From the NCBI RefSeq assembly GCF_009914755.1, contig NC_060941.1: a stretch of 64,000 nucleotides of DNA, one strand, 5' to 3'. Below, piece after piece: positions 1,200-5,000 of this stretch (its first letter is position 1; every line of letters starts with the position of its first letter). The position numbers were made by a program, and so were the translations under genes. The notes below the pieces were generated by a model, which saw only the letters and a list, made by a program, of their open reading frames with translations, was not told the DNA's origin and did no database searches. The stretch is from the human T2T-CHM13v2.0 reference genome, Homo sapiens.

Positions 1200-1704
1200 A
1201 GGAGGTAAAAGAGAAAGAGGAAAGGGCAGCCATAAAGAAAGGGAGCCTTGGCCTGAGGACACGGGCCTCTTCTGTTCTCTCAGGGAGACCCACCTGAGCA
1301 TAGATCACCTTTCCAGGTGGACTAGAGGCTCCAGGAGGCCCCTCCAAGCCTCTCCCACTATGCAAGCCTTGCTCTCTCTTCTATCCTGTATTGGGAAGGG
1401 GGGTAGAATACAGGATAAGATGAGCTCTCCAGCCCCTGGGGAACCCCCCAGGGGGAGATCCTAGGGGAGTGAGGTACAGGGTTAGTGAGCCAATAGGCAT
1501 GACTGAGCATCTATTAGGCGTCAGTTTCCGAACACACAGGGATGTGTAGGACACGGTGTCATCCATGTAAGCAGCATTTGTTGTAGGAAAAGATGCAGGG
1601 AAGGATGGGGGAGGGGATGCTAAAGAAAGAGAAGGAAGGAAGAGACTGAAGAAACAAGGGGAAGGGGAAGAAAGAAAGACGCAGTTGTCGATTCTCTCTC
1701 TCTC

Positions 1705-2000
1705 TTTTTTTTTTTTTTTGAGATGGAGTCTCGCTCTGTTGCCCAGGATGGAGTGCAGTGGCACGATCTTGGCTCACTGCAACCTTTGCCTCCCAGGTTC
1801 AAGCTATTCTCATGTCTCAGCCTCCCAAATACCTGGGACTGCAGGTACGTACCACCATGCCCAGACAGTTTTTTATATTTTTAGCAGAGATGGGGTTTCA
1901 CCATGTTAGCCAGGATGAACTCGATCTCCTGACCTCGTGATCCTCCATCCTTGGCCTCCCAAAGCGGTGGGATTACAGGTGTGAGGCACTGCACCCGGCC
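1705..2000 (-). mobile_element. Alu
   Basis: polyT followed by Alu consensus. Confidence 0.95.
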
Positions 2001-5000
2001 ATCAATGTCTCTTAACTCATACTCTAGTTGTGGCAATCGGATATCTAGAGAAAGGGTGGCTAAAAAGCTCAGTGATAAGTGAGCAGTCACCTAAGATAAG
2101 TTACAAGGGGGGTGTCAAGGGAGGTTTCAGGAGGGCTTGGGACAGAGGAGTGGGCTGGCAGGGTAGGTGGCTTCTTCTCACCTGTAGACCTGGCTGGCCT
2201 GGTTGTCCTTGAGGAGACCCTGGCCCAGAGGCTTCACTGGTTCTTGAGCTCCATGGATTCCCAGGAGCTTGTCTGGGCTGGGCAACCCTGAAAGGCCCAG
2301 TGTCCACAGGGTTCCTGGCAGCCCAGAAACTCCTGGGCATCTAGGGTGGTCCTGGGGCCCTTCATGGCCAGAGTAGACCTAAGGTCCTAGTGGTCATAGA
2401 GATCCTGGTCTGCCAGGAGGTCCAGAGGCCCAATTCCACCCTGCAACTGGAAGAAGAGGCTGGAGTCATGGATGTGAACCACAGAAGTAGGGGTGTGTAT
2501 TCGAAGGTAGGGGTCTCTTACAGGGGCAGTCAGTGGGGCCAAGCCTGGGAACCCTGCTGGGAGTAGAGCGTGCACACGGGAAAGTGCCCACGGCCCTGAG
2601 ATCACTTAGGGAAATCCAAGATGGTCCTGGGGGTGGGGCTACTGAGTTCCAGGTCCTATCCCAGCACTTGGGTGTAAATATAGAGATGGTCTCTATAGTT
2701 AGAGACAATATGGTTTCTTAGCTTGAGACTCCTGTCATCACCTTTACCCCAGACCCTTAATTCACAGGATCTTCAACCACAATTCTACCCAAATAATACC
2801 ATCACCTGTCGTCCACCCACCCTACTCATTACCCACCCACCATCCATTCAGCCCCATCCACCATTCACTCTCCTCCCCACCCACTCACCATCCACCCATT
2901 TGTCTGCCTACCGTCAACTCACCACCCACTTCCTACCAACTGCATACCATCCACCCTCACCGCTGGTCTAGCTGCTCCTTCCAAAAGTAGTGCTAATCAG
3001 GAGCCACAGAGGGTGCTGGGAGGCTAGGGTCTCTGAGGAGGGTCTGGGGGTCCCCTGGGGAGTTCCTAAGGAGCAGGGAATCTTAGGATCCCTAAAGCTC
3101 CCTTTCACCAGGAAAGCCAGAGGCCCATTCTGTCCTGGGGTACTCCTCTGCCCCTGCTTTCCCTGCTGGAACAAATGGGACATGCAGTAGAGATGGAAGC
3201 AGGGAGGAGAGGGTTTTCTGTCTCACTCCAGCTCCTTAGTCTTCCTTTTGTTCACCCACCTCCCCTCCACTGCCATCCCAGAGGATCCCAAAGGCCCAGA
3301 GATTTCTCACCCAGGGTGGCACTTATCTGACATTCAGGGGGCCCAGCAGGGCAGGCACATCCAGAAGGTGAGTTGGGAGCAGGATGAGATAGGCTTGGAA
3401 GAGAGGTTAGAATCAGGCTGGCTTTTAGATTACTAAGTCCCACCTCCCCATTGTACAAATGGGAAAACTAAGGCCCAAAGAGAGGTGTAACCATAGATGA
3501 CTGCAACGGGGCGGCAAGCTGACCTGGGGGATGGGGTGAGAAAGCCAGTGATGCCTCCTCATGTGGTGGGGAATAGGGTCACATGAACCTGTCACTTTCT
3601 CCCTAGCTCTGACATTCCACATAAGGTCCTTGGGAGGCAATAGGGTGGGGCCCAAGAAGAGAGGAGTAGGAGGGGGTGGAGTGCTGTGTGCCTCTACCCA
3701 GCATCCATCTGTTTCCCTGACCATCTCACCTTTTCAGGCTGTACACCTTCTCTCCCTCCCCTATCCCATGCCTGCTTACTTGTTTGCCTGTGTAGGAGCC
3801 AGGTACTGAGGAGTACAGGTCAGTGTGGCCTGAAAGAGCCTAATGAAACTCCCATTCATTAGTGGAAGTCAGGGTGGGGAGTGGGGGCAGGGGACCAGCA
3901 TTCCAGGTAGCTGACCCCTGCCTCGGACTTTGGACTCAGAACCCAGGGGTCTGACTTGAGGAACAGCAGAAACCCATCCTCCAGTCCATTGCCCTCAGAG
4001 GGCTCTTGGGTGCTGCTGGGAGCAAGCCTGATGGATAGATGTGGGCTCTGAGACTTGGTCTAGCTTGACAGCTACTACCTCATTCTTTCCTCTGAAGAAT
4101 GAACAAATGAATGAAGAGGGAGACTTTACCCCAGACCCTTAATTCACAGGACCTTCAACCACTCTTCTACCCAAATAATGCCATCACCTGTCATCCACCC
4201 ACCACCTACTCATATCTGTTTTCTGATATCTGATTTCATATCTGTTTCTAAATCTCTCCCACCTCTGCAAGTTTTTCATTTCATCACATCTATTCACCTG
4301 TCTGTGCCTTTCCATCTCTCTGTCCTGTTCCCTCTTTCAGCCCCTCCCTCTCTTGGTTTTTCCCTTGCTAGTACTCCCTCCTCTTCTCTCTATCCTTTCA
4401 CTCCAAATCATCATAGAATCTTAGCATCAGAAGAGACCCAAGAGGGTCATAATAAGGACACCATCAATTTGTAACCTGCTTTCTGGTATACAAGTCTGTC
4501 ATTTTAATAGACAGCCTCATTTGATCCTCCTTAACAGCCTGCCAGAGTGAAGTAGGGAATAGCATCCCCAGTTTACAGATAAGGAAACTGAGGTTCACAG
4601 TGGTGAAGAGACAAGCCCACAGCTAATAAGGACAGAGCTGAGATCTGAACCCTTGGCTCGGACTGCAGGACCAGTGCAGACTGCCCCACAGTTTGTGCAT
4701 CCCAAGCTGGGAGCAAAGCTCTTTTCCATTTCAGGCTGTCTGGCTTTCCCCTGGCTTGGGGCCCAGCTTCTGCTGCTCTTTAGATCATCATGACTGGGTG
4801 GGGGTAAGGAACAGCCCACACAGATCTCAAAGATTACTGGCTCCAAACATCAAGTCTCTGAAAATGGTGCAGACCAAGGGAGTGAATCCAGGCTTCAGGA
4901 GAGGAGACAGAGGCTCTGTGGATTAGGAGTTCCAGGTGTAATAGGCCTTGTTGCTGGGCCTACCCAGCCCTGTTCCTCTGCCGTCAAGTTCTCTCCAGCC

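What the first reader, a model, noticed from the sequence alone, without database searches (positions are those of the whole stretch)
1294..3370. Distal relic cluster: five Gly-X-Y exons with short introns
In transcript order: ~3370-3260 GCACPAGPP...GEK...GPLGSSGMA; 3162-2961 cag|GKQ GQR sTP GQN GP. GFP GER...GAA rPA|gtgag; 2626-2522 (105 nt, near 108) dHL GFP...GPT|gtaag; 81-nt intron; 2440-2182 cag|GGI GP. GPP GRP GSL...GHE GPQ...GVS GLP GTL..GLS GLP..GIH GAQ...GQP GQP GLQ|gtgag; 1385-1294 ...GLE GPP GAS sPP GKV IYAQ|gtgggt, which looks like a helix end. This is the clearest part of the relic.
Basis: seen in the sequence. Interest (0 to 1): 0.75.

Follow-up and report, generated by a model that had tools for sequence, protein, structure and literature searches.

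The report
Dead multiplexin collagen gene beside TOP2A
The stretch holds the decayed remains of a collagen gene of the collagen XV/XVIII (multiplexin) type, including traces of its endostatin-like end, which suggests humans once had a third gene of this kind that is absent from the RefSeq table given with the finding.

Summary
One claimed exon, D (2440-2182, minus strand), is an unmistakable decayed Gly-X-Y exon. It has 19 of 29 in-phase Gly codons, scores z 21 against shuffles, and its periodicity ends exactly at cag| and |gtgaga. Exons B and E are individually marginal but significant as neighbours of D on the same strand. Exons A and C are not above chance.

The new result is the family. 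About 6 and 9.5 kb further 3' on the same strand, just outside the window and 2 kb upstream of the TOP2A start, lie colinear remnants of the first and last exons of an endostatin domain. This is the C-terminal hallmark of the multiplexin collagens COL15A1 and COL18A1. The helix end of exon E also matches a conserved COL18A1 helix/non-helix junction.

The relic is unique in the genome. It has no DNA-level similarity to the 25 kb of COL18A1 that could be compared, and it is about equally distant from XV and XVIII. The best reading is an unprocessed pseudogene of a third multiplexin. No orthologue could be sought, because no non-human vertebrate DNA was at hand. The N-terminal half, the trimerisation domain and the middle endostatin exon were not found.

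The parts
3260..3370 (-). Claimed exon A. Not supported as collagen-coding.
   Evidence: Periodicity score 13.5; 17 of 200 dinucleotide shuffles reach it. There is no clean acceptor.
2961..3162 (-). Claimed exon B. Only 3162-3047 is Gly-X-Y-like: 8 of 13 triplets keep GG, with one 1-nt deletion and two in-frame stops. The rest is non-periodic and could be a non-collagenous interruption or not exon at all.
   Evidence: Score 22.6 over 3187..3082; 1 of 200 shuffles reach it. Flanks are a pyrimidine tract plus cagcag| and |gtgagg. It ranks 7th against a full-length COL18A1 profile.
2522..2626 (-). Claimed exon C. It has splice-like flanks (ccccag| and |gtaaga) but no Gly-X-Y periodicity above chance.
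   Evidence: Score 9.0; 97 of 200 shuffles reach it. Flanks.
2182..2440 (-). Exon D, a decayed collagen triple-helix exon of 29 triplets. It is 259 nt, inferred 261 nt before two 1-nt deletions. It is phase 0 at both ends and contains TGA and TAG stops.
   Evidence: Score 72.6, z 21, 0 of 200 shuffles. 19 of 29 GG retained and 8 of 10 broken codons one step from GGN. Pfam Collagen PF01391 E 0.0022, 18.1 bits, below the cut-off of 27.2. Best hit of a full-length COL18A1 profile among 1357 ORFs. Unique DNA. No tandem repeat.
1294..1386 (-). Exon E: nine triplets (6 keep GG, the other 3 are one step from GGN, one in-frame stop), followed by a helix end of a few non-Gly residues and then |gtgggt. 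Two further parts of the same relic lie outside the window, so they cannot be listed as rows here. (1) A first endostatin-exon remnant at window coordinates -4989..-5124, minus strand (chr17:41286876-41287011). (2) A last endostatin-exon remnant at -8320..-8436, minus strand (chr17:41283564-41283680).
   Evidence: Exon E: score 22.8; 0 of 200 shuffles reach it, shuffle max 21.1. The helix end aligns with the COL18A1 junction in P0071, P0072, P0074 and P0068 and with human exon chr21:43857181-43857252. Second-best hit of the full-length COL18A1 profile.

Outside part 1: COL18A1 exon peptide 22.7 bits, 50% identity over 22 aa, with 1 of 40 shuffled queries reaching it. The exon's last residues follow in another frame after an A-rich insert. 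Top hit of my NC1 profile: 9.4 bits, E 0.04 among 1357 ORFs.

Outside part 2: Pfam Endostatin E 0.016, 15.3 bits against a cut-off of 29.4. COL15A1 gives 28.1 bits and COL18A1 25.0 bits, with 0 of 40 shuffles reaching either. Second hit of the NC1 profile at 8.7 bits. 0 of 14684 control ORFs reach 8.7 bits. Unique in the genome.

Best explanation
The finding is the collagenous middle of a dead, unprocessed multiplexin-type collagen gene, the family of collagen XV and collagen XVIII. The gene lies on the minus strand between IGFBP4 and TOP2A. It runs from at least window position 3162 down to about -8436, roughly 11.6 kb. The ancestral gene would have encoded a secreted chain with several Gly-X-Y triple-helix segments interrupted by short non-helical linkers, ending in an endostatin-like globular domain. 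In humans it is no longer a gene. Exon D alone carries two stop codons and two 1-nt deletions. The first endostatin exon is split by a simple-repeat insertion and a frameshift. The middle endostatin exon, the trimerisation domain and the whole N-terminal half cannot be found.

Shown here: the Gly-X-Y exons; the endostatin remnants; their shared strand and order; their uniqueness in the genome; and the lack of DNA similarity to the 3' 25 kb of COL18A1.

Inferred: that this is the carcass of a third paralogue, a unitary pseudogene and perhaps a 2R ohnologue of COL15A1 and COL18A1, rather than an old partial copy of one of them. I put about 0.45 on the former and 0.25 on the latter. Also inferred: that it died on the order of 100-200 million years ago. 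This rests on 12 of 58 Gly-codon G sites being changed (JC distance 0.24, 95% CI 0.12-0.44), combined with a recalled neutral rate.
For: - Exon D: 72.6 against shuffles of 11.7 +/- 2.9, 0 of 200 reaching it. Its periodic stretch begins and ends exactly at cag| and |gtgaga. GTRAG donors and pyrimidine-tract acceptors each occur only about 2 per kb.
- Exons B and E flank D on the same strand, where about 0.02-0.03 such segments are expected.
- Of 71 minus-strand ORFs 3' of the window start, one hits Pfam Endostatin at profile positions 125-164 of 170.
- Human COL15A1 and COL18A1 last-exon peptides both have their best tblastn hit in the 27-kb interval at that same spot: 28.1 and 25.0 bits, with 0 of 40 shuffled queries reaching either.
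- The COL18A1 first-exon peptide has its best hit 3.3 kb upstream of that spot on the same strand (22.7 bits, 1 of 40 shuffles). The exon's last residues follow in order.
- A profile of 16 COL18A1 C-termini plus 3 COL15A1 fragments ranks exactly these two places first and second among 1357 six-frame ORFs, colinear and both on the minus strand. 0 of 14684 control ORFs from 248 kb of other human DNA reach their scores; the control maximum is 6.4 bits.
- A full-length COL18A1 profile ranks exon D, exon E and the first endostatin exon as its top three hits.
- Exon E's helix end matches a conserved COL18A1 junction.
- Each of the three relic stretches tested (2100-2700 and the two endostatin remnants) is unique in the genome. 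blastn against the last 25 kb of COL18A1 finds nothing beyond a 19-nt match.
Against: - Every homology score is sub-threshold by curated standards. Collagen is 18.1 bits against 27.2. Endostatin is 15.3 bits against 29.4.
- In one search the Endostatin E-value of 0.016 is no better than several unrelated chance rows in the same batch, for example DUF6636 at 0.0094, Vma22 at 0.016 and Dof at 0.016.
- A genome-wide PF06482 search did not pick the locus among its 9 first-look candidates.
- COL15A1 exon-1 and exon-2 peptides and the COL18A1 exon-2 peptide do no better than shuffled queries: 32 of 40, 22 of 40 and 3 of 40 reach them.
- The only exon-2-like piece (-2658..-2732) lies out of order.
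- No trimerisation domain, TSPN/laminin-G domain or further collagen exons were found between -11000 and 14950.
- phmmer of exon D found nothing significant against 1.84 billion representative proteins or against PDB chains. The word-indexed search of 5.8 billion proteins also found nothing.
- The relic's own endostatin piece found no relative.
- My periodicity score can be fooled by other repeats. A 9-residue repeat on chrX scores 102.
Confidence: 0.72

Rival explanations
1. It is a real collagen-type pseudogene, but not a lost third paralogue. On this reading it is an ancient partial DNA-level copy of the 3' half of COL15A1 or COL18A1 that was never functional at this site.
For: Only the C-terminal part is detectable: some collagen exons and two endostatin exons. 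No N-terminal domain and no early collagen exons were found in 3400-14950.
Against: There is no DNA similarity to the last 25 kb of COL18A1. In the aligned endostatin pieces the relic shares about as many residues exclusively with XV as with XVIII. This is my hand count on the alignments, roughly 5 against 6, so no parent stands out. The location fits the recalled paralogy between 17q21, 12q13 and 21q22.3; that paralogy was not tested here. COL15A1's collagen region could not be fetched.
Confidence: 0.2
2. It is a relic of some other collagen or collagen-like gene, and the endostatin-like matches are chance.
For: All endostatin scores are below curated cut-offs. The genome-wide family search missed the locus. 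One of the three endostatin exons is missing and the only candidate for it is out of order. A 259-nt phase-0 exon is not known to me as typical of XV or XVIII, and I could not check their exon sizes.
Against: Two independent exons match, on the right strand and in the right order, 3' of the collagen exons. 0 of 14684 control ORFs and 0 of 40 shuffled queries reach their scores. The helix end of exon E matches a COL18A1 junction. A COL28-type gene was considered, but COL28A1's helix is built from about 22 small exons that my scan marks as 41-96 nt each, unlike exon D. No Kunitz or VWA remnant was found.
Confidence: 0.06
3. It is not a gene remnant at all. The Gly-X-Y periodicity arises from base composition or a decayed minisatellite.
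For: The GC-rich IGFBP4 CpG island scores 50.2 on the same measure for compositional reasons (z 2.5). A 27-nt repeat on chrX scores 102.
Against: Exon D has z 21 against dinucleotide shuffles of itself. It contains no tandem repeat. Its borders are exact splice-like sites. Its broken Gly codons are mostly one step from GGN (P 0.007).
Confidence: 0.02

Closest known systems
COL18A1 (collagen XVIII, source of endostatin) and COL15A1 (collagen XV, source of restin), the two human multiplexins
   Same: Both have Gly-X-Y exons with helix/non-helix transitions, followed 3' on the same strand by an endostatin-type domain split over the same kind of exons. The relic's first- and last-exon remnants align to profile positions 175-198 and 270-309 of my NC1 profile. 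They keep the two cysteines and the C-x-x-W and V-L-C motifs of the last exon. The helix end of exon E resembles a conserved COL18A1 junction.
   Different: The relic is dead, with stops, frameshifts and a repeat insertion. It lacks a detectable middle endostatin exon, trimerisation domain, N-terminal TSPN domain and most collagen exons. It lies on chromosome 17, not 21 or 9. It shows only 33-36% identity to either paralogue over 39 residues and no DNA similarity to the 3' 25 kb of COL18A1. A review of collagen XV, read in passages only (PMC7852327), names only XV and XVIII as vertebrate multiplexins and mentions no pseudogene.
Human collagen-family pseudogenes such as COL6A4P1/COL6A4P2 and the collectin pseudogene MBL1P (recalled, not examined here)
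   Same: These are unprocessed remnants of genes with collagen triple-helix exons that are intact in other mammals.
   Different: They are annotated, young enough to align readily with intact orthologues, and belong to other families. The present relic is absent from the RefSeq table supplied with the finding and is far more decayed.
Relics of genes lost in mammals that were found by synteny, such as the vitellogenin remnants (recalled)
   Same: A few exon-sized, heavily mutated pieces are left at the ancestral position between conserved neighbours.
   Different: For those relics, intact orthologues in birds and other vertebrates anchor the identification. No orthologue could be sought here.

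Membership tests
Collagen triple-helix repeat (Pfam PF01391) | An uninterrupted run of Gly-X-Y triplets recognised by the family profile above its curated cut-off | tested here: inconclusive
   Exon D read through its two stops (P0001) gives E 0.0022 and 18.1 bits, against a cut-off of 27.2. The 66-aa stop-free part alone gives no hit at E up to 1. The periodicity itself is far above chance: 19 of 29 in-phase Gly codons, z 21.
Multiplexin collagens (COL15A1/COL18A1) | A C-terminal endostatin/restin domain (Pfam PF06482) | tested here: met
   The remnants are below the curated cut-off (15.3 against 29.4 bits) but above every control. COL15A1 and COL18A1 last-exon peptides score 28.1 and 25.0 bits at one spot, with 0 of 40 shuffles reaching either. 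The first exon scores 22.7 bits, with 1 of 40 shuffles reaching it. These are the top two of 1357 ORFs with my own profile, and 0 of 14684 control ORFs reach their scores. The middle exon was not found.
Multiplexin collagens (COL15A1/COL18A1) | Multiple triple-helix segments interrupted by non-collagenous linkers | tested here: inconclusive
   Three Gly-X-Y exons were found. Exon B loses periodicity after about 13 triplets. Exon E ends its helix in a junction like one in COL18A1. This is too little to count separate COL domains.
Multiplexin collagens (COL15A1/COL18A1) | A trimerisation domain (PF20010) between the last helix and endostatin | tested here: inconclusive
   No hit in the Pfam scans or with my NC1 profile, which covers it. 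Absence in a decayed relic interrupted by Alu insertions does not exclude that it was once present.
Multiplexin collagens (COL15A1/COL18A1) | An N-terminal thrombospondin-like (TSPN/laminin-G) domain | tested here: inconclusive
   No hit on the minus strand of 3400-14950, either with Pfam or with a full-length COL18A1 profile.
Multiplexin collagens (COL15A1/COL18A1) | Parts on one strand in the order helix exons, first endostatin exon, last endostatin exon | tested here: met
   All parts are on the minus strand: 3162-1294, then -4989..-5124, then -8320..-8436.
Unitary (unprocessed) pseudogene | A disabled reading frame with exon-intron structure retained | tested here: met
   Stops and 1-nt deletions occur in exons B, D and E. 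AG/GT-flanked exons are separated by introns of 81 to about 800 nt. The first endostatin exon is split by an A-rich insertion.
Unitary (unprocessed) pseudogene | An intact orthologue at the syntenic position in other species, and no parent copy in the same genome | not testable with these tools
   No non-human vertebrate genome was available. The relic stretches tested match no other DNA in the human genome beyond the simple-repeat insert, and the relic has no DNA similarity to the 3' 25 kb of COL18A1.
Collagen XXVIII type (VWA-helix-VWA-Kunitz) | A helix built from many small exons, with a C-terminal Kunitz domain | tested here: not met
   COL28A1's helix exons appear as about 22 small segments, 41-96 nt each in my scan, against 259 nt for exon D. 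No Kunitz match occurs at the locus in the genome-wide search, and no VWA or Kunitz hit in the Pfam scans.

The most novel reading that the evidence does not exclude
Human 17q21.2 keeps the carcass of a third vertebrate multiplexin collagen, an ohnologue of COL15A1 and COL18A1 with its own endostatin-like domain. This gene stayed functional into the mammalian stem lineage and was then lost. Intact orthologues may survive, unnamed or filed as 'collagen XV/XVIII-like', between TOP2A and IGFBP4 in non-eutherian vertebrates.
Probability: 0.4. Interest if true: 0.7.

Novelty: new member of a known kind. Interest (0 to 1): 0.55.

Why it matters
The human collagen family is treated as a closed list in which the multiplexins number two. 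A third multiplexin locus, even a dead one, would change the family's evolutionary history. It would point to a gene with an endostatin-like fragment worth looking for in other vertebrates. It would also explain an otherwise anonymous stretch just upstream of the TOP2A promoter. On the practical side, it is a pseudogene missing from the RefSeq table supplied with the finding. I found no paper describing it in searches or in passages of PMC7852327. GENCODE and Ensembl could not be consulted.

Tried and rejected
**Sequence searches with exon D (P0001).**
- The word-indexed search of 5.8 billion proteins (longer lengths) scored none of 167 candidates at E up to 0.001.
- phmmer against 1.84 billion representatives gave 0 hits at E up to 0.001.
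- PDB chains gave only chance hits, E 0.9 or worse.
- Against the human genome only the locus itself was significant; the next hit was E 0.008 on chr2 and does not look like collagen.

**Search with the relic's endostatin piece.** P0002 residues 10-60 at longer lengths: 10 candidates, none scored.

**ESM Atlas.** It was closed for a plain ORF of the same exon.

**COL28A2 idea.** This came from recall of Gebauer et al. 2016, which is not held and was seen only as a citation. I rejected it on exon structure and the lack of Kunitz or VWA remnants. A supplementary table of PMC10416458 lists a collagen XXVIII-like Xenopus gene with a count of 2 in what I take to be its mammal column (the header was not read), but on chromosome 9. 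The same supplements gave no XV/XVIII-like entry.

**Spurious or unsupported matches.**
- A COL18A1 'match' to exon E proved to be an intronic tandem repeat of COL18A1.
- The third hit of the NC1 profile is an Alu tail.
- The exon-2-like piece at -2658..-2732 is out of order and weak (E 21 with the profile).

**Limits on fetching.** Their exon sizes could therefore not be compared with 259, 202, 105 and 92 nt.

**No phylogeny.** I built no tree. Only human COL15A1 and COL18A1 orthologues were at hand, and the relic offers about 67 alignable residues.
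Full report
**Observation.** I measured Gly-X-Y periodicity in two ways.

The first was a strict scan for GGN at 9-nt spacing. It found 30 minus-strand and 2 plus-strand start positions with at least 7 of 12 in phase across the whole window. Sixteen of these lie at 2459-2324. The others lie in the IGFBP4 CpG island (8) and the TNS4 region (6).

The second was a frameshift-tolerant alignment to a cyclic GGN-NNN-NNN profile.
- Exon D scores 72.6 over 2443..2181. 200 dinucleotide shuffles gave 11.7 +/- 2.9 with a maximum of 23.7.
- Exons B and E score 22.6 and 22.8; 1 of 200 and 0 of 200 shuffles reach these.
- Exon A scores 13.5 (17 of 200) and exon C 9.0 (97 of 200).
- The CpG island scores 50.2 but only z 2.5, so that signal is compositional.

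In 344.5 kb of control strand, 3 segments reach 22.6. B and E are therefore unremarkable alone. They are unexpected as two neighbours of D within 1.3 kb on the same strand (P 1.4e-4 to 4.8e-4).

**Exon D in detail.** It has 29 triplets. 19 keep GG, and 8 of the 10 broken first codons are one substitution from GGN (P 0.007). There are two stops and two 1-nt deletions. The periodic stretch starts at a pyrimidine tract plus cag| and ends at |gtgaga. GTRAG donors and tract-plus-YAG acceptors each occur only about 2 per kb. There is no tandem repeat, and the DNA is unique in the human genome. Pfam Collagen is sub-threshold: E 0.0022, 18.1 bits against a cut-off of 27.2.

**Family: first attempts.** Direct searches with exon D failed. 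The interval from just upstream of TOP2A to IGFBP4 holds no further strong Gly-X-Y segment. Pfam scans of long read-through frames found only the RPL23A pseudogene.

I considered a collagen XXVIII-type gene and rejected it. COL28A1's helix is built from about 22 small exons, and no Kunitz or VWA remnant is present at this locus.

**Family: the endostatin lead.** I scanned the minus-strand ORFs one by one. This gave nothing 5' of the finding (98 ORFs). Among the 71 ORFs 3' of the window start there was one hit to Pfam Endostatin (PF06482): E 0.016, 15.3 bits, profile positions 125-164 of 170. It lies in a 127-aa frame at chr17:41283348-41283728.

On E-value alone this is no better than several unrelated rows of the same batch, so I tested it independently.
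- **Human exon peptides.** Peptides of the three endostatin exons of COL18A1 and COL15A1, located, were run by tblastn against the 27-kb interval.
  - Both last-exon peptides have their best hit at that same spot, window -8320..-8433: 28.1 and 25.0 bits, with 0 of 40 shuffled queries reaching either.
  - The COL18A1 first-exon peptide has its best hit at -4995..-5060 on the same strand (22.7 bits, 1 of 40). The exon's last residues follow at -5104..-5124.
  - The gap between those two pieces is an A-rich simple repeat, the only part of either remnant with matches elsewhere in the genome.
- **Profile built here.** A profile of 16 COL18A1 C-termini plus three COL15A1 fragments ranks these two places first and second among 1357 six-frame ORFs. 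Both are on the minus strand and colinear. None of 14684 ORFs from 248 kb of other human DNA reaches their scores.
- **Full-length profile.** A full-length COL18A1 profile ranks exon D, exon E and the first endostatin exon as its top three hits.
- **Helix end of exon E.** It aligns with a specific, conserved COL18A1 helix/non-helix junction in three salamander proteins (two named, newt and axolotl), a caecilian protein and the human gene.

**Against, or missing.**
- The middle endostatin exon was not found. The only candidate for it is weak and out of order.
- COL15A1 exon-1 and exon-2 queries do no better than shuffles.
- The trimerisation domain, the N-terminal domain and most helix exons are undetectable.
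- The genome-wide PF06482 search did not list the locus.
- My periodicity score can be fooled by other repeats.

**Origin.** blastn finds no DNA similarity to the last 25 kb of COL18A1. Over the aligned pieces the relic shares about as many residues only with XV as only with XVIII; this is my own count on the alignments. Taken together, this favours an old, separate lineage over a recent copy.

From recalled gene maps, which I did not test, 17q21 is paralogous to 12q13. Genes around COL18A1 at 21q22.3 and COL15A1 at 9q22 have relatives at 12q13. This would suit a third ohnologue.

12 of 58 Gly-codon G sites are changed (JC 0.24, CI 0.12-0.44). With a recalled neutral rate this suggests death on the order of 100-200 million years ago. 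That is a rough inference.

**Literature.** Searches found no description of such a pseudogene. A review of collagen XV, read in passages only (PMC7852327), names only XV and XVIII as vertebrate multiplexins. Gebauer et al. 2016 was not held. Supplements of PMC10416458 were searched by term only.

**Verdict.** This is a real but only partly correct observation: three of the five exons stand. It is best explained as the remains of a multiplexin-type collagen gene (confidence about 0.7) and plausibly a lost third family member (about 0.4-0.45). The decisive test is comparison with other vertebrates' TOP2A-IGFBP4 intervals, which could not be run here.

Noticed in passing
G000 chrX:1215612-1217888 and chrY:1230078-1232533 (PAR1): These are the highest-scoring and most numerous Pfam Collagen matches in the whole genome search. 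They lie in long open frames of up to 716 aa. They look like a GC-rich periodic array rather than a known collagen gene.
   Followed up: no
G000 chr9:147846590-147846745; chrX:139101409-139101573; chr18:78888396-78888936: Collagen-profile matches above the curated cut-off. The chr9 and chrX matches and one of the three chr18 matches carry internal stop codons. These may be other collagen-like relics or introns read through.
   Followed up: no
G000 chr2:169940949-169941083: A Kunitz-domain match above the cut-off with two internal TAG stops, possibly a Kunitz pseudogene exon.
   Followed up: no
L005 = G000 chrX:77093276-77096488, around 77094776-77094988: An open frame with a repeat of about 9 residues that has Gly at two fixed positions. 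It scores 102 on my Gly-X-Y measure without being collagen. This is a caution for periodicity-only calls.
   Followed up: partly
window 14801-15269, minus strand: The IGFBP4 CpG island and first exon give Gly-X-Y-like periodicity on the opposite strand (score 50.2). It is explained by composition (z 2.5).
   Followed up: yes
window coordinates -2658..-2732, minus strand (chr17:41289268-41289342): A short stretch resembles the end of the middle endostatin exon of both COL15A1 and COL18A1 (E 0.008 and 0.10). However, it lies 5' of the first-exon remnant, so it is out of order. It is either chance or a sign of rearrangement.
   Followed up: partly
L041/L042: chr21:43865327-43865903 and 43869901-43870356: Tandem repeats 5' of the endostatin exons of COL18A1, which I take to be intronic, translate into Gly/Pro-rich open frames. 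They produce spurious protein matches to the relic.
   Followed up: yes
window 10919-11443, minus strand: The annotated RPL23A processed pseudogene is recovered by Pfam (Ribosomal_L23eN E 7e-14). It served as a positive control for the ORF scans.
   Followed up: yes
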